DNA of 64,000 nucleotides from Eledone cirrhosa (Eukaryota), in assembly GCA_964016885.1 (NCBI GenBank), contig OZ024743.1:309194001-309258000 (forward strand), read 5' to 3'. The position numbers were made by a program, and so were the translations under genes. Shown here piece by piece: positions 1,930 through 62,167 of this stretch. A model generated the notes under the pieces. The model ran no database searches. It saw nothing but the letters and a program-made list of their open reading frames with translations, and was not told where the DNA came from. Numbering within the stretch: the stretch's first letter is position 1; the number at the start of each line of letters is the position of its first letter.

Positions 1930-2575
1930 CTCCTGTCTCGTAGTCTGGTGACAGTTGGGGCGCCACAGATGACCTGTCAACCAACTCCTTCCATTCCTCT
2001 CGACACTTTCCTCATGGTTGCACCCAGCCTTATGCCTGTCCATTCCGGGATGTTGTCTTCCTATCTCTTTCTCTGTCTGCCCCTCTTCCACCCTCCTTGT
2101 ACTATTTTCTGCTGGACAGTCTTGGCAGACCCTGAAGATCTTGTCACGTGCGCGTACCATCTCAATTTGCGTTGTTTTACAATGGTCAACAGGTCTTCGT
2201 AGGGCTCGATGGCTTGCCAAATTCTGTTTCGTACCTCCTCATTGGAGATGCCGTCTCCGTAGGCGATGCCAAGAAGCTTTCTCAAGCATCTCATCTCCAT
2301 AGCCAGTATTCTTCATTCCAGATCTGTTGTTATTGTCCAAGACTCACAGGCATACAAGTATATGGATAGGACCAGAGAGCGCATCAGTCTGATCTTTGAG
2401 TTGAGGGCTATATTTGTGTCATTCCAGAAGTAGAGTTTGTGGCCTTTCTGGGTGGATGTTTCTCCGATATTTTTCCACCGAACTTCACAGAGTCCTAGGA
2501 TGTTCCAGCAGTATCTTGTTCATCTCGTTCGCCAAGCTTGCCAGCTTCTCTAACAGAAATCCCATTCCATGTGCC

Positions 2576-2576
<1 letters not shown>
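1930..2576 (-). mobile_element. RTE-clade LINE remnant, internally deleted (APE N-terminus joined to ORF C-terminus)
   Basis: 2061-2300 gives EMRCLRKLLGI..LLTIVKQRKLRWYAHV.R..RGRQRKR; minus strand of 2420-2576 reads like GTWN..REAGKL..ILGLCEVRWKNIGE (APE start). Confidence 0.8.
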
Positions 2577-2607
<31 letters not shown>

Positions 2608-2609
<2 letters not shown>

Positions 2610-2806
2610 AACGAGTAGGACCCGGACGGTTGAGCTCAAGCCGTTTCGACGGCTAGTTCTGGACTAAAATGTCCAGAATTAGCCGTCGAAACCGCTTGAG
2701 CTCAGCCGTCGAGGTCCTACTCGTTCCTATTACCCACTCTACTACCCTAAGTATTGAGTACTTTGGTGCGTTATGGACCACCTGGTTCCTTACCACATTT
2801 CCTTCG

Positions 2807-2809
<3 letters not shown>
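2608..2809 (+). mobile_element. solo PLE pseudo-LTR 3' fragment with ~55-bp foldback, (TA)n-flanked
   Basis: Same sequence as the pLTR at 57194-57330; 2608-2665 is the reverse complement of 2671-2727; carries the HHR 3' half GAAAC...GCCGTC. Confidence 0.8.
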
Positions 2810-2881
<72 letters not shown>

Positions 2882-3034
2882 TACATATATACATTTATAT
2901 ATACATATATACCTATATATATATATATACATATATTTATATATATATATATATATATACATATGTATATATATATATATATATATTTATAAATATATAC
3001 ATATATATATTTATATATATGTGTATATATATAT

Positions 3035-3790: not shown

Positions 3791-4608
3791 ATAATGATAC
3801 ATGACATACCCTGAGATGTTAAATGGTTAAGATTTAATCAAGGTAGTGATTACCCGATAGAAAATTTTGCTTATATAATATCTATGTGAGAGTGCGAAAA
3901 CGTAATGAATTCATTAGGGAATGTGTTAGTAAGAACATTTTAAGTTGTATGATACAATAATATATAGGCAAACGTCTCATGAATCATAACAGCCAGTGAT
4001 AGCCACTGGAAAAAGATTTATAAGGAGGGAAAGATAAAGTGTAGGGTTTTTTTTTCGAAAGTTAAACGGTTAGAATTTGGAAATATTTAATTTATAATAT
4101 TAATGTGGAGACTCCAGATTTCAGGATTATTTGCTATTTATTTATCTATTATTTATATAAATTCGATAAGTGTGTTATCATTTCTAAACTTCTGAATTGC
4201 GAGAATAACATTTTAAAGGATTTAGCTGGCACATAAAGAATGAAATATTATACTGTTGATTAATTACCTAAATCTAAACTTTAACAAATATCCCAACATA
4301 TTAGGTATGCAAAGCCTTTGAAGTGCTTATTGTTATGAATATTTGAATAACTATTATCTATATAGGTATATATTAATGAGTCAGTATATATAAGGTAAAA
4401 ATAAAATAATATAATATATTATAGATAAAATTTATACATATGTATAATTATTCTTCAACCAAGATATCAACGTATTATTAGATATAGGGATGTATATATA
4501 TAGATATATATTAGGTATTATTAATGTAGTATACTTTAGGTAAATGATATATTACATTTAAATATATATATACATAGAATCCATCCCTAATTTTCCTAAC
4601 ACTAACAA

Positions 4609-5206
4609 TAGGAAAATTAGGGATGGATTCTCCTCTCTACATACTACTAGTCTGAACAGATCTGGCAATGCATTACCACCAGAACAGTCCTTATCTAATA
4701 GCAATCCTACGTGTAATGCATCACCACTTGAGCCAACCAATAACACCCGGAAGTGCAATTGTAGAGTGAGTGCTAACTGCCCTTTAAACGGTAACTGCCT
4801 TTCTAAGAACATTGTCTATGCTTGCGAAGTTATAACTAATTCCTCTAATAGAACTTATATAAGCTCTACATCTAACACTTTTAAGACTAGGTTTAACTCT
4901 CATATCTCTAATTTCAAACATGTTAAGTTTAAGAATTCTACTTCTTTAGCACATTATATCTGGGATCTTAAGGGAGCTAATATATCATATAGCCTTAACT
5001 GGCGTTTAGTAGCACGCTCTAACCACCTTTCTACACATACTAAGTTTTGTAATCTCTGTATCCTCGAGACACACTCTATAATTTTCTCTAGCGCATCCTT
5101 ACTTAATAGAAAGTCTGAGATATTCTCTTCTTGCCCCCACGCTATTTCTAATTCATACTTTTATTATAAACCTAAACGTTCTAGTAGTACAAATTGTACC
5201 CATTAG
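4609..5206 (+). pseudogene. PLE linker and GIY-YIG endonuclease domain
   Basis: NRKI...RKCNCRVSANCPLNGNCLSKNIVYAC.V..YISST..FKTRFNSH..STSLAHYIW.LK..CNLC..E..LLNRKSEIFSSCPH. Confidence 0.88.
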
Positions 5207-6896
5207 CTGATATATTCCATTATTTATTTTTTTAGTTTAGGTTCTTTTGTTTGCCAACATTATTATTATCATCATTATTATCATTGGTTTTTGATGACTC
5301 TTTATTCTAGCTCTCATAATCTTTTGGCTACTGTACCATATCTATCTTCTTACGCATTAAATTTTCACTATTACACCTTATGAATGTATATAAGATTATA
5401 TATTTTACGCTATTTATTTTATTTTATTTTATTCTTATTTTTATTTTTATTCGGATTCTTCTTTGGATACCCCCCCCCCCCCATGCGCACATAAACTTAT
5501 TGTCAACCCCTCCAAATCGACTATGATTATATTTAACCCCCCCTCTTTTACGCTCCTTTCTATTATGTAATATAGTATATCGACTATATTTTATGCCCCT
5601 TTGCATCCTCCATATATTTCTTCATTTCTGTCCCTATTAGCCTACCTTAATTCTGCTTAAGTCAGTTTTTTAGATATCGTTATGTATATGATAGTAAAAA
5701 ATTTTCATTCCTTTTTGTAAACATTTGTAACGAAATATTAACATTTATAAACTTTAATTACTTAAACTATAGCTAATATTATACTGCCTTATTGGATAGT
5801 TTAAATATTTTTAATATTAATTTATCAAATAGGGTTTTCGAGTCATTTACAGGGGTTGTTTCCTTAGTTTTTACTTAACTACTTAACTGCATGTGAGACC
5901 TAAATATATACGTTTGTTTTTGTTTTTTAATTTCCGGTTGATTCTATTTATTTATTTTATTCTATATTTTATATTTTATATTTTATTTGTAATACTACTG
6001 TGCATTATATTTACTTTCTGGCACTTACTCACTCATCCATATACATGTCTGTCTACCAACCTTGTAACATTATGATATGTTAAACTTTATATATCATGTA
6101 AGATGTTTGTATTCTTTTGTACCATCAACATTTTTTGGGGGGTATTGTACAATTTATTTTTCCTCACCTACTCTGTAACCCAGTATGAATTGATTTGTTA
6201 ACTTGAGTACCATTATATATTGTTTATTATAAATGTTAATATATTGTATATTATAAATGTTAGTATATTATTATTATATTATTATTGTGACATCTATATT
6301 GTTTGTGTAAATTAACCGGGGATTATCTATTCTATTATATTGTATTATATAGTATATAATTGTATTGTTTATTATTTATTTTATGTGCTACTTATAATTA
6401 TATCATATTATTACCTCATGTATATTGGGTAGATGTATTAGTATTATTATTATTATTATTTTCATTCCTATCATGCTTATTTTTATATTCAAACTCTTAA
6501 TAAGGTTTAATTTGTGCAGTTGAAGATGGATGTGTGTATTGTTGTATGTGTATCTGTGTGTACGTGTGCGCACATATATACATATGCATATCGTACCTTT
6601 TGATTTTTATTGTAATTTTAATGTTGGTAAAGGTATATTATATTATATTATATTATATTACATTGTATTATATATAATTCTTGCTCTATATAACCACCTT
6701 TGTTTAGCTCTAGGTTTTTTGCTTTGGACTAAATTTGTAATATGGTTCTTAATGTTATATACATCCTTAGTAATTTTTATTATATATTTTTATTATTTTT
6801 ATTATATATTTTTGCAATACTTTAGTGTATGTACACTCCATATTCTTCGGAGCTTCCGGCTTGTATCTGCCGATATTACTTCTTGTTGTTTTAATT

Positions 6897-6934
6897 GCCC
6901 TGATGAGTCCTAAATAGGACGAAACATTGTCGGC
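6897..6934 (+). ncRNA. minimal type I hammerhead ribozyme
   Basis: gcc CTGATGA gtccta aa taggac GAAAC att GTC ggc; canonical core with perfect stem II. Confidence 0.9.
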
Positions 6935-7081
6935 TAATAAAGACTTTTGATGTATTGAAGGCTTCTTTGTTTTACTCTCTTAATTTTTCGGCTCTGTTTA
7001 ACTACATTGAGCTATACCTTTTACTGTCATTTCTATAATACGAAGAGGGTGTTTAACTCCAACACGCTCCAGTATTTTAAC

Positions 7082-10525: not shown

Positions 10526-10841
10526 TATATATAAATAAAAATAGAGAAATTAATGTGAGCAAGAAGCCAACAGTAATTCATAATATATAAGTGACTATTA
10601 CGTCAAGATGGAAAATATTTAACGTAAGATATGGGAAAATAATTCAATCTCAATTAAAAAAAAGTCAAGACAGAAATTTTATCCACAGATTTTGTGTAAT
10701 CCAAGGACGCACACACGCAAGCACACTCACATATATATACATATGTATATATATATATATATATATATACATTATGAAGAGAGAAGAAACATTTAGATAT
10801 AATTAGTAATAAAATGTATCATACCTAAACTGTTCCTAAAT

Positions 10842-10929
10842 TCCTCGACTACGTAGTTTCGTGGCATAAACAAAAACAATATATCAAAGATATAGAGTCC
10901 TTGCGAGGTCTGCCAACTTATCAAGAGGA
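10842..10929 (-). ncRNA. type I hammerhead ribozyme, U3-A8 variant, long stem II (unit 1)
   Basis: Reverse complement: tcctc TTGATAA g-t-tggca..(insert)..tgccac GAAA ctacgtag TC gagga. Confidence 0.8.
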
Positions 10930-11432
10930 TACCTCATTTTACTAGTCTCAAGAACGCGTCTACACGACGTGAGAAAGAATCCCAAAAGGCGGAGGGGGAG
11001 ATAGTCACGCGATATAACGGTCGAGAAACAGAGCTAAGCCTCTTATAACCACGAAGAAAATACCACGGAGGCGGAGGGGGTATTCATATCGAGGCCGTAG
11101 AAGAGGTAGTGAAGAAGGCGAGAAGTATGAGTAATGGAAGCTTTCCAGTTGTCCCCACACTTCAAAGATTGCTCGACCAGAGGGAGTTATTAATATATTT
11201 AAAAACACACAGATACATGCGGACACACACATATATACATGAATGCATCCGCACCCAACTGTGAGTTAAGGGTGCCAACTTCACCGATGTTGCTCAATGA
11301 ATGACTGGGACAGACCAATTCAGTTTGAACCAGACTGAACCAGTATCAGAGTTAAAAATACATTATGAAGAGAGAAGAAACATTTAGATATAATTAGTAA
11401 TAAAATGTATCATACCTAAACTGTTCCTAAAT

Positions 11433-11520
11433 TCCTCGACTACGTAGTTTCGTGGCATAAACAAAAACAATATATCAAAGATATAGAGTCCTTGCGAGGT
11501 CTGCCAACTTATCAAGAGGA
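11433..11520 (-). ncRNA. type I hammerhead ribozyme (unit 2)
   Basis: Identical to 10842-10929. Confidence 0.8.
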
Positions 11521-12023
11521 TACCTCATTTTACTAGTCTCAAGAACGCGTCTACACGACGTGAGAAAGAATCCCAAAAGGCGGAGGGGGAGATAGTCACG
11601 CGATATAACGGTCGAGAAACAGAGCTAAGCCTCTTATAACCACGAAGAAAATACCACGGAGGCGGAGGGGGTATTCATATCGAGGCCGTAGAAGAGGTAG
11701 TGAAGAAGGCGAGAAGTATGAGTAATGGAAGCTTTCCAGTTGTCCCCACACTTCAAAGATTGCTCGACCAGAGGGAGTTATTAATATATTTAAAAACACA
11801 CAGATACATGCGGACACACACATATATACATGAATGCATCCGCACCCAACTGTGAGTTAAGGGTGCCAACTTCACCGATGTTGCTCAATGAATGACTGGG
11901 ACAGACCAATTCAGTTTGAACCAGACTGAACCAGTATCAGAGTTAAAAATACATTATGAAGAGAGAAGAAACATTTAGATATAATTAGTAATAAAATGTA
12001 TCATACCTAAACTGTTCCTAAAT

Positions 12024-12111
12024 TCCTCGACTACGTAGTTTCGTGGCATAAACAAAAACAATATATCAAAGATATAGAGTCCTTGCGAGGTCTGCCAACT
12101 TATCAAGAGGA
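12024..12111 (-). ncRNA. type I hammerhead ribozyme (unit 3)
   Basis: Identical to 10842-10929. Confidence 0.8.
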
Positions 12112-12787
12112 TACCTCATTTTACTAGTCTCAAGAACGCGTCTACACGACGTGAGAAAGAATCCCAAAATGCGGAGGGGGAGATAGTCACGCGATATAAC
12201 GGTCGAGAAACAGAGCTAAGCCTCTTATAACCACGAAGAAAATACCACGGAGGCGGAGGGGGTATTCATATCGAGGCCGTAGAAGAGGTAGTGAAGAAGG
12301 CGAGAAGTATGAGTAATGGAAGCTTTCCAGTTGTCCCCACACTTCAAAGATTGCTCGACCAGAGGGAGTTATTAATATATTTAAAAACACACAGATACAT
12401 GCGGACACACACATATATACATGAATGCATCCGCACCCAACTGTGAGTTAAGGGTGCCAACTTCACCGATGTTGCTCAATGAATGACTGGGACAGACCAA
12501 TTCAGTTTGAACCAGACTGAACCAGTATCAGAGTTAAAAATACATTATGAAGAGAGAAGAAACATTTAGATATAATTAGTAATAAAATGTATCATACCTA
12601 AACTGTTCCTAAATTCCTCGACTACGTAGTTTCGTGGCATAAACAAAAACAATATATCAAAGATATAGAGTCAAGAGGCTTAGCTCTGTTTCTCGACCAT
12701 TATATCGCGTGACTATCTCCCCCTCCGCCTTTTGGGATTCTTTCTCACGTCGTGTAGACGCGTTCTTGAGACTAGTAAAATGAGGTA

Positions 12788-12875
12788 TCCTCTTGATAAG
12801 TTGGCAGACCTCGCAAGGACTCTATATCTTTGATATATTGTTTTTGTTTATGCCACGAAACTACGTAGTCGAGGA
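12788..12875 (+). ncRNA. type I hammerhead ribozyme (inverted arm)
   Basis: tcctc TTGATAA gttggca...tgccac GAAA ctacgtag TC gagga read directly on +. Confidence 0.8.
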
Positions 12876-13106
12876 ATTTAGGAACAGTTTAGGTATGATA
12901 CATTTTATTACTAATTATATCTAAATGTTTCTTCTCTCTTCATAATGTATTTTTAACTCTGATACTGGTTCAGTCTGGTTCAAACTGAATTGGTCTGTCC
13001 CAGTCATTCATTGAGCAACATCGGTGAAGTTGGCACCCTTAACTCACAGTTGGGTGCGGATGCATTCATGTATATATGTGTGTGTCCGCATGTATCTGTG
13101 TGTTTT

Positions 13107-13177
<71 letters not shown>

Positions 13178-13184
13178 TATATAT

Positions 13185-13746
13185 TAGAATTTCGTATTTC
13201 TAAAGAAATACGGTATGTTTATAAATAAACATTTACAAAGCCATAGTTATGCAAAAACACCGGTGGCGACAGCCACGCCAGCGATGTTTTTGCACAGCTA
13301 CGGCTTTATAAATATTTATTTATAAACATACCGTATTTCCTTTGAAATACGAAATTCCAATACATATTTGTATACAGCTCTGTTCGAAGCTAAATCCTAA
13401 TTCTATTCTATTATAAGTTGACCCAACTTATACAGCTTCATATGCAAATTAGATTAATAACCTCATTTACACAGACGAGAAAACTATATATTCTCGCTTG
13501 TTTTCAAGTCCAGCAGTTGCAAGAGCGGAAGGGATCGTACTGATGAGGACCAGTTCAGTTGAAATGCATCGATGATTAACCAGCTTGCTTCTGCTGGACA
13601 CCGCCAGATGGCGATAGCCACCGATGTTTTTGCATAGCTACGGCTTTCTAAATGTTTATTTATAAACATATCGTATTTCTAAAGAAATACGAAATTCCAA
13701 TACATATTTGTATACAGCTATGCTCGAAGCTAAATTCTACCCCCCC

Positions 13747-60622: not shown

Positions 60623-60782
60623 GCAGAGTAATTCATGGTGGCAGGGATGGTCAGTAAGAATGTGTCTGAAAGCAATGGGGGGAATTTTAGCATGTCAAAA
60701 GATATTTTTCAGCTTTTGTCTTATACGGAGAAGTGCGCGTGTGTGTGTGTGTATATATAAGTCTCTTTGTATGTTGATGTAC

Positions 60783-62003
60783 AAACCCTACAGGCAGAAA
60801 TCTGGGACCGCTATGGGAACGAAAACAGCCCCCACTTATGCCAACCTAGTCATGGGATACCTGGAAATCACCCTCTACACTAAAGTCCTAAACAAATTTG
60901 GAAACACCCTCCACTTACACATTGAAAGGAACTGGAAGCAATATCTAGATGACTGCTTCATCCTTTGGCACGAAAACATCGAAAAACTTAAAGAATTTCA
61001 CACCCTTATAAATGGGCTCAACACAAATATTAACTTCACGATGGAATACAGCCATCAACAACTCCCCTTCCTCGACATCCTCATTAAGATCCATAACAAA
61101 AAAATAGAAACAGACATATACTACAAGCCCACAGACTCCAAGCAATATCTCCCCTTCAACTCTTGCTACCCTAGACACGTTAAAATTAATATTCCCTACA
61201 ACTTAGCCAAGAGAATCTGTACTATAGTCTCCAATAAAAACATCTGCTACTTACGGCTACAAGAACTAAAGGACACACTCATAGGCAGAGACTACCCTGC
61301 ATCACTAATTGACAATGGAATCCAACGTGCCCTAAAACTCAGTACCCAGGACCTTAGACACCCTAAAGTAAATCAACCAAAACTAAAAGCTCTTCCATAC
61401 ATCTCCACACACAACCCCCTGAACAATGAGGCCTTTGACACCATCCTCCAGAACATCCCTGTATTGAAAAAGGACCATAGAATGAACCAAATTCTACGAA
61501 CTCATGATATCATAAAGAGCAAAAGACAATCCAAGTCAATGAAAAACATCTTAACACATGCCAAAGTACTGCCAACCACAACAACGAAACCCACAGTAAA
61601 AAAATGTGATAGACCCAACTGTGGCATTTGCATCAACCTAATAGAGGGTTCGGAATTCTATTTCAAAGATGGACAACGTTTTATAGTAAAACACAATTTC
61701 ACATGTGCATCGGAAAATCTAATATATGTATTAACTTGTTCAGGTTGTCGAGAACAAAACATAGGCCAGACCAAAAACAGCCTTCGCCAACGCATGACTG
61801 TCCATAGATCCCAAATCAAATTACGGGAATACAGGAAAATACCACTGAGTGAACACATTGATACCTGTGCCGCCCAAAATCATCCCAACTTCAGAATCTT
61901 TCCCCTCTACAAATTTAAAGATAATGCCACCCACACCCAGCGCATCAGCAAGGAATCTTACTTCATTAACAAATACGGACCCTGTCTAAACACTTCTCCC
62001 TAA
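60783..62003 (+). CDS. PLE RT C-terminal half + Cys linker + GIY-YIG endonuclease (open frame, 5'-truncated)
   Basis: GTAMGTKTAPTYANL, YLDDCF, PFLDI, YYKPTD, KCDRPNCGIC, NLIYVLTCSGC..NIGQT..LRQRMTVHR, ESYFI..LN; the first ~40 aa of the 60660 ORF come from the inverted pLTR. Confidence 0.9.
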   Translation, partial: KPYRQKSGTAMGTKTAPTYANLVMGYLEITLYTKVLNKFGNTLHLHIERNWKQYLDDCFILWHENIEKLKEFHTLINGLNTNINFTMEYSHQQLPFLDILIKIHNKKIETDIYYKPTDSKQYLPFNSCYPRHVKINIPYNLAKRICTIVSNKNICYLRLQELKDTLIGRDYPASLIDNGIQRALKLSTQDLRHPKVNQPKLKALPYISTHNPLNNEAFDTILQNIPVLKKDHRMNQILRTHDIIKSKRQSKSMKNILTHAKVLPTTTTKPTVKKCDRPNCGICINLIEGSEFYFKDGQRFIVKHNFTCASENLIYVLTCSGCREQNIGQTKNSLRQRMTVHRSQIKLREYRKIPLSEHIDTCAAQNHPNFRIFPLYKFKDNATHTQRISKESYFINKYGPCLNTSP

Positions 62004-62167
62004 GACGAACCCACAACATACACACGTCAACATACATACCTACATCAGCACACATCTCTACCCACATATAAACACAATGACATACGTAAACACACATGCT
62101 CTATGGTGCAACACAAAAAAATATATGTGCATATATGTATGTATATATGTATATATATATATATATA

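What the first reader, a model, noticed from the sequence alone, without database searches (positions are those of the whole stretch)
10768..13113. Very young 591-nt HHR-bearing tandem array with an inverted arm: footprint of rolling-circle reverse transcription
Seen: 3.2 head-to-tail 591-bp units, in which I see only one substitution (in unit 3). They are followed by a 440-bp inverted arm that runs across the array's starting register, and both ends merge into (TA)n. Each unit has one HHR on the minus strand, with predicted cleavage after GUC at 10847, 11438 and 12029. There is no credible ORF. Inference: a multimeric transcript self-cleaves into 591-nt monomers that can circularise, and an RT going round the circle produced this insertion in one event. 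The unit is longer than the few-hundred-nt animal retrozymes I know of.
Basis: partly seen in the sequence, partly recalled or inferred. Interest (0 to 1): 0.9.

Follow-up and report, generated by a model that had tools for sequence, protein, structure and literature searches.

The report
Retrozyme copied twice from one circle
A young 591-base non-coding repeat carrying a hammerhead-ribozyme motif has jumped into thousands of TA microsatellites of a mollusc genome, and its two-armed insertions, whose units all share the same A-to-G changes, are likely the footprint of one edited RNA circle copied from two fixed start points at once, a step proposed for such elements but not shown in the papers searched.

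Summary
The array, inverted arm and hammerhead motifs are real. The element is a non-coding non-LTR retrozyme with thousands of dispersed copies; its length is not unusual. The outer ends are not permuted: copies begin at one of two fixed sites, 80 and 245 nt after the predicted cleavage site, joined to (TA)n in 172 of 175 cases. Two-armed insertions use one site per arm (55 of 57; none the same site twice). Variants lie in all units of an insertion or in one (119 and 85 of 215); both arms agree in 53 of 54 informative loci. All-unit alleles are enriched for A>G on the RNA strand (19 of 47 against 9 of 121) and recur at the same positions on different backgrounds, as A-to-I editing would give. 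Best reading (0.7): a Penelope-like enzyme primes both cut strands on one monomer circle and rolls round it. Not shown: cleavage, the circle, editing in RNA, the partner enzyme (three candidate families gave no DNA match). Apparent copies in other species look like trace DNA, not transfer.

The parts
10731..10769 (.). (TA)n target, left side
   Evidence: TRF
10767..12672 (-). Arm A: 3.22 units, RNA sense on minus strand; 3' end at start site A (monomer position 80, window 10767), inner end at monomer position 539
10842..10929 (-). Type I hammerhead motif, U3-A8 core, long helix II insert, palindromic helix III; predicted cleavage after 10847
   Evidence: activity untested
11433..11520 (-). Hammerhead motif, second unit; predicted cleavage after 11438
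12024..12111 (-). Hammerhead motif, third unit; predicted cleavage after 12029
10988..10998 (.). GC-box-like motif (monomer 440-450), partly conserved in the sister families; possible internal promoter element (inference)
11070..11080 (.). GC-box-like motif (monomer 358-368), core invariant in 13 of 13 aligned units; possible internal promoter element (inference)
12170..12170 (.). Single-unit substitution in arm A (monomer 450)
12672..12673 (.). Central junction of the two arms (their variable inner ends), blunt here
12673..13115 (+). Arm B: 443 nt, RNA sense on plus strand; inner end at monomer 394, 3' end at start site B (monomer position 245, window 13115); one substitution at 12699
12788..12875 (+). 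Fourth complete hammerhead motif, in arm B; predicted cleavage after 12870
13110..13184 (.). (TA)n target, right side
   Evidence: TRF

Best explanation
This is a young non-coding hammerhead retrozyme whose insertions into (TA)n start at two fixed sites, one per arm, and were likely made by a Penelope-like enzyme that primed both cut target strands on a single monomeric RNA circle. Shown from sequence: family, fixed sites A (80) and B (245), one site per arm, (TA)n junctions, microhomology at the central joint, all-or-one variants, arm concordance, recurrent all-unit A>G. Inferred: arrays are transcribed; neighbouring hammerheads pair through their palindromic helix III and cut out 591-nt monomers; a host ligase closes them; ADAR edits some adenosines; a dimeric RT/GIY-YIG protein cuts both strands of (TA)n; each 3' end anneals over a few bases at one site; the two RTs roll round the circle with strand displacement; the two cDNA ends anneal and copy each other, giving the inverted two-armed insert; loss of one arm gives a plain tandem array.
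For: 55 of 57 two-armed insertions are A+B, 0 A+A or B+B, 2 broken; in unselected junction lists from 131 Mb, 22 of 22 inverted pairs are A+B; sister families 16 and 19 A+B, one clear B+B. 172 of 175 3' ends on (TA)n; 7 A ends stop at 76, as if the primer covered a G-T mismatch. All-unit 119, single-unit 85, intermediate 11 of 215 variant sites with 3 or more passes; 121 sites fixed in both arms, none fixed in one arm over 2+ passes and absent from the other; arms concordant in 53 of 54. All-unit alleles A>G 19 of 47 vs single-unit 9 of 121, Fisher p 1.4e-6; 9 of 14 in the youngest 53 loci. Four-gamete conflicts: 2 of 78 pairs without an A/G site, 62 of 299 and 61 of 253 with; seven A>G sites arise 3-5 times on the tree. 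304 crossings of the cleavage junction with 5 non-reference calls nearby; no inner end at positions 1-9 among 180. PLE protein cuts and extends both strands, starts internally at two sites, predicted dimer (PMC11167929).
Against: No RNA data. In vitro the one purified PLE used uncleaved RNA, did not need hammerhead cleavage and started without homology to the target. Eight of nine Xenopus retrozyme dimers did not cleave in vitro. The motif alone does not fold into the full hammerhead (z -1.62). 11 intermediate variant sites, one B+B insertion (L249), one discordant pair of arms (L071). ADAR neighbour bias is only a trend (5' G 2 of 19, p 0.20). Arm lengths are uncorrelated (rho -0.22, p 0.11). 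No partner PLE was identified. 'Private' means rare among 118 of roughly 2000-3000 insertions.
Confidence: 0.7

Rival explanations
1. The template is an uncleaved linear multimer, twin-primed at A and B; the hammerhead is a passenger.
For: Uncleaved RNA was the dominant substrate of a purified PLE; no inner ends at the cleavage site fits this too; a few adjacent or alternating shared variants (L107, L195, L199).
Against: An edit or mutation in a multimer would mark one unit; single-unit A>G is at background (9 of 121) while all-unit A>G is enriched, also across both arms (L061 4+5 passes, L095 several alleles 3+4 to 3+5). Only 10 single-unit alleles recur among 153 events.
Confidence: 0.12
2. 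A circle is the template, but all-unit variants come from RNA-to-RNA replication errors or strand-biased mutation of transcribed source loci, filtered by selection, not from editing.
For: RNA-to-RNA steps are suggested for retrozymes (PMC7761336; PMC4209133); all-unit T>C is also fairly common (11 of 47); a transcription-linked A>G bias is known in mammals (recalled).
Against: Homoplasy is confined to A/G sites, with the same adenosines changing 3-5 times in a family 1-5% diverged; C>T, equally tolerated in stems, is not enriched (5 of 47).
Confidence: 0.08
3. Linear self-cleaved monomers are copied end to end by template jumping.
For: One monomer would also give all-unit variants if the RT jumped back onto the same molecule; end-to-end jumping is known for R2 RT (recalled).
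Against: 304 crossings are clean, without added or lost bases; no arm ends at the cleavage site; units never switch haplotype at the junction in the young loci.
Confidence: 0.05
4. Short insertions were expanded afterwards in the DNA (slippage, unequal crossing-over), as for satellites, and homogenised.
For: This is the route discussed in bioRxiv 10.64898/2026.07.22.740005; L199 and L107 show variants in adjacent units.
Against: Cannot make both inverted arms multimeric with shared rare alleles (15 of 55 have both arms over 591 nt); gives no RNA-strand A>G bias; arrays are short, dispersed and nearly identical.
Confidence: 0.04
5. Assembly artefact.
For: Inverted and tandem repeats beside (TA)n are hard to assemble; long reads were not available.
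Against: Same anatomy at 118 insertions on many chromosomes, each with its own ends and single-unit variants; unit abundant in a run of the same species.
Confidence: 0.01

Closest known systems
Metazoan non-LTR retrozymes (Cervera and de la Pena 2020, PMC7229834, passages; Li, Clavereau and Pollet, bioRxiv 10.64898/2026.07.22.740005, parts 1-3 of 5)
   Same: Non-coding tandem units with one type I hammerhead each, low GC, dispersed in thousands of copies, PLEs in the same genome; circle-templated multimeric cDNA is their proposed route.
   Different: Unit 591 nt (above the 170-400 nt circles tested, inside the 51-972 bp range); U3-A8 core; no homologous PLE terminal repeat found; fixed paired start sites, inverted two-armed form and all-unit A>G are not described in what was read.
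Endonuclease-bearing Penelope-like elements: inverted pLTR with a tail on one end (Arkhipova et al. 2013, PMC3846280, passages; Craig et al. 2021, PMC8557442, passages and section 15)
   Same: Inverted 5'-truncated copy joined head to head, extension present at one end only, (TA)n targets, microhomology joints.
   Different: No ORF; the tail is 165 nt, not 30-40; those papers ascribe the structure to endonuclease resolution or antisense self-priming, whereas here both arms appear target-primed on one RNA.
Anolis Poseidon PAc in vitro (Frangieh et al. 2024, PMC11167929, parts 1-2 of 4)
   Same: Both strands cut and extended, two internal start sites downstream of the hammerhead that define the tail, predicted dimer.
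   Different: There no difference of start site between strands, no homology to the target and no need for cleavage; here one site per arm, short homology to (TA)n and signs of a monomer circle.
L1 twin priming (recalled; only search listings seen)
   Same: Two target ends prime on one RNA and the cDNA ends join by microhomology, giving an inversion.
   Different: In L1 the second primer site is variable and the RNA linear, so arms do not overlap by whole units; here both sites are fixed and both arms can exceed one unit.

Membership tests
non-LTR retrozyme | Tandem repeats with a type I hammerhead in at least two consecutive units | tested here: met
   three consecutive complete motifs; 5' core invariant in 13 of 13 units of three families; U3-A8 is a described variant; Rfam misses it
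non-LTR retrozyme | No coding capacity, no LTR-type organisation, GC below 50% | tested here: met
   six-frame translation; unit about 41% GC; PBS/PPT not searched for explicitly
non-LTR retrozyme | Dispersed multi-copy mobile element | tested here: met
   1944 and 1069 exact end junctions, 7911 core matches
non-LTR retrozyme | Self-cleavage of the transcript | not testable with these tools
   helix III self-pairs between two copies at -14.3 kcal/mol, prediction only
non-LTR retrozyme | Expressed as circular RNA | not testable with these tools
   indirect genomic signs only
non-LTR retrozyme | Homology to the terminal repeat of a co-resident PLE (Li et al.) | tested here: inconclusive
   no match beyond simple repeats in three PLE families and 23 further PLE 3' regions; many families and distal UTR parts unseen
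autonomous Penelope-like element | RT plus GIY-YIG ORF between the repeats | tested here: not met
   no locus seen continues from the unit into such an ORF
PLE-type insertion | Inverted 5'-truncated arm, tail at one end, microsatellite target | tested here: met
PLE-type insertion | Target-site duplication | tested here: inconclusive
   hidden in (TA)n; one clear 37-nt direct duplication (L037) among 118

The most novel reading that the evidence does not exclude
Each insertion is the record of one RNA molecule: an ADAR-edited 591-nt circle held by a Penelope-type dimer whose two active sites start at two different fixed points and roll round the same circle. This would explain the tandem, inverted and one-sided-tail anatomy of Penelope-like elements in general, and would make A-to-I editing the main heritable mutational force in this retrozyme family.
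Probability: 0.45. Interest if true: 0.85.

Novelty: new member of a known kind. Interest (0 to 1): 0.66.

Why it matters
How Penelope-like elements make tandem and inverted insertions with a tail on one end is named as open (PMC8557442), and copying of RNA circles into the genome is proposed for retrozymes and PLEs while the one in vitro system used uncleaved RNA. This very young, high-copy family gives countable genomic evidence on both points and sharp predictions: two named start sites, one per strand; seven named adenosines that should be inosine in RNA; more-than-unit cDNA from a circle. It also suggests a general test (all-unit versus single-unit variant spectra) for any retrozyme family. 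The element itself is an ordinary kind.

Tried and rejected
Horizontal transfer: 20 public runs under 17 organism codes hold part of the unit, 14 of them half its words or more, and three laid runs of other organisms gave 99%+ contigs without our flanks. Rejected: a second, unrelated high-copy repeat of this genome appears in the two such runs tested in about the same proportion as in the own-species run (X2 490:105, X8 23:8, X3 about 1.1 million: a few hundred thousand), and raw reads of another sample labelled as one of those organisms held neither (X22, 0 laid). Trace DNA of the window's species is the simpler reading; 5 of the 20 holders were laid. Expression: no RNA holder listed. Partner search: young intact Neptune-like family with a 784-aa frame, a second RT/GIY-YIG family, a third PLE-like family and 23 PLE 3' regions near insertions gave no DNA match; only about 1.5 kb either side was seen. 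20 of 20 extra hammerhead-core loci were the same retrozyme families. Pfam gave no hit on four window PLE fragments, so clade names are recalled from motifs. Covariation of the whole circle: 9 compensatory pairs of 160 in 13 related units, no control, not used. First A>G count (30 of 88) was inflated by mis-polarised sites; 41 alleles matching the sister families were dropped. Earlier-finding look-ups by sequence and by the long word list were blank.

Full report
Observation. The window holds an exact 591-nt period from 10767 to 12672 (1906 nt, 3.22 units, one substitution at 12170) followed without gap by 443 nt of the reverse complement (12673-13115, one substitution at 12699); both outer ends run into (TA)n. 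Three complete hammerhead motifs lie on the minus strand and a fourth on the plus strand in the arm. The core is the U3-A8 variant described from Schistosoma PLEs (PMC4209133, passages), with a long helix II and a palindromic helix III that pairs between two copies (-14.3 kcal/mol). Rfam misses it and the motif alone folds only modestly. Positions below count along the RNA-sense monomer from the predicted cleavage site.

Family. The genome (3.0 Gb; mollusc haemocyanin genes; seven domains per gene suggests an octopod, recalled) holds 1944 exact site-80 and 1069 site-245 junctions with (TA)n and 7911 copies of the 3' core (the first and last patterns can include sister families). The window copy belongs to the youngest subfamily (188 units with its marker). 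Two sister families of about 590 nt, about 80% and 74% identical, share the core and both sites. I analysed 119 regions: the window, 38 top-scoring loci (40 of 482 candidates were scored), 40 regions around the first site-80 junctions of contig 1, 27 further young loci and 13 site-245 junctions without a listed partner. Dropped before counting: L185 (two adjacent insertions, one cut by the edge; it is included only), the segmental duplicate in L076, an edge fragment in L102 and a sister-family hairpin in L099, leaving 118 insertions. None continues into an RT or GIY-YIG frame.

Two fixed start sites, one per arm. 3' ends cluster at 80 (72 ends; 7 at 76) and 245-247 (84 ends); 172 of 175 sit on (TA)n. 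The 180 inner ends are spread round the unit and none lies at positions 1-9. Of 57 two-armed insertions 55 have one arm at each site, none has the same site twice, two are broken. In the unselected pattern lists for the first 131 Mb (100 A and 54 B junctions) all 22 inverted pairs within 10 kb are A+B; independent choice would give 45% (my arithmetic, p about 3e-8). Three one-armed copies carry a 13-15 nt second arm, again of the other type. Sister families: 16 A+B, none alike, 5 with one arm elsewhere; 19 A+B, one clear B+B (L249), one doubtful (L256), 2 elsewhere. Ends at 76 replace G with A, as expected if the (TA)n primer annealed across a G-T mismatch (inference). Central joints overlap by 1-8 nt in 38 of 57, are blunt in 11 and gapped in 8 (mismatch-tolerant extension can inflate overlaps). 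All 55 A arms and 44 of 55 B arms cross the cleavage site, 34 pairs pass each other's start and 15 have both arms above one unit; the longest arm is 4113 nt.

One template molecule, monomeric. At sites passed three or more times, variants are in every unit (119), in one (85) or intermediate (11, of which 3 come from L185). 121 variant sites are fixed in both arms, 15 of them seen in no other sampled locus; none is fixed over two or more passes of one arm and absent from the other; arms agree at up to 14 common markers in 53 of 54 informative loci. The junction is crossed 304 times with 5 non-reference calls within 3 nt. After removing 41 alleles that match the sister families, all-unit alleles are A>G on the RNA strand in 19 of 47 cases against 9 of 121 single-unit events (p 1.4e-6); A>G exceeds T>C relative to composition among all-unit (p 0.008) but not single-unit changes (p 0.28); in the 53 youngest loci 9 of 14 all-unit alleles are A>G. 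Among 77 loci, informative sites other than A/G are nearly free of four-gamete conflict (2 of 78 pairs) while pairs with an A/G site conflict in 62 of 299 and 61 of 253; positions 132, 277, 340, 357, 395, 537 and 547 change 3-5 times on the tree. A change made once on an RNA and copied into every unit of both arms is what an edited monomer circle gives; a linear multimer would carry it in one unit. The ADAR neighbour preference is only a trend, and editing was not observed in RNA.

Mechanism. Shown: anatomy and variant patterns above. Inferred from retrozyme and PLE literature: transcription, dimeric self-cleavage and ligation by a host ligase (PMC7229834, passages; PMC7761336, passages); a PLE protein that cuts and extends both strands from two internal sites and is predicted to be a dimer (PMC11167929, parts 1-2 of 4). 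My inference: one RNA per complex with each site used once explains strict A+B pairing; two RTs with strand displacement give two long arms; their ends anneal and template each other. Against: that enzyme did not need cleavage, showed no strand difference in start site and no homology to the target; most Xenopus retrozyme dimers did not cleave (bioRxiv 10.64898/2026.07.22.740005, parts 1-3 of 5); the partner was not found although several young PLE families are present.

Comparison and novelty. Membership of non-LTR retrozymes is met on all sequence features; cleavage and circle are untested. Length is unremarkable (51-972 bp). Inverted arms with a tail at one end are known PLE features (PMC3846280, passages; PMC8557442, passages and section 15), there ascribed to endonuclease resolution or antisense self-priming. 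The pairing rule, the all-or-one test and the editing footprint were not found in ten searches of the held library; subscription papers and supplements were not seen. Apparent presence in other species was tested and is better explained by trace DNA. Verdict: new member of a known kind with unusually informative mechanistic footprints; interest 0.66.

Noticed in passing
window 13171-13739: A second, unrelated, older two-armed repeat with a 340-nt period and a hammerhead-like core near 13540 sits right beside the array. Its family (3890 candidates) also has two main 3' ends about 35-50 nt apart; 5 of 10 two-armed copies pair one of each, the other 5 have an end elsewhere, none has the same site twice.
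   Followed up: partly
window 6894-6938: Canonical type I hammerhead (Rfam RF00163) about 150 nt before a (TA)n, at the end of the long 3' region of a young high-copy GIY-YIG/RT family whose endonuclease end lies at 4562-5206.
   Followed up: partly
window 60624-62140: Truncated copy of a very young Penelope-like family with many intact 784-aa frames (98% identical) and a CX2-5CxxC motif, Neptune-like by recall; a candidate active enzyme.
   Followed up: partly
L195:1547-3269: Variants alternate with a two-unit period (positions 22 and 450), as a dimeric circle would give.
   Followed up: no
L032, L064, L080, L093 flanks: Left and right flanks are inverted copies of each other over 35-53 nt, in L032 and L064 starting in the (TA)n next to the insertion; possibly fold-back events or host inverted repeats.
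   Followed up: no
L035, L036, L095, L032 central joints: Short or long extra pieces of the unit between the arms (13-20 nt; 205 and 325 nt third segments), pointing to template switching before the join.
   Followed up: no
runs X1, X2, X8, X9: High-copy young repeats of this genome assemble as clean consensus contigs in runs labelled as other organisms, a trap for horizontal-transfer claims.
   Followed up: yes
L097:4217-6208: PLE-like frame with a long asparagine-rich insert, family with frames up to about 1200 aa; similar inserts are described from rotifer Penelopes.
   Followed up: partly
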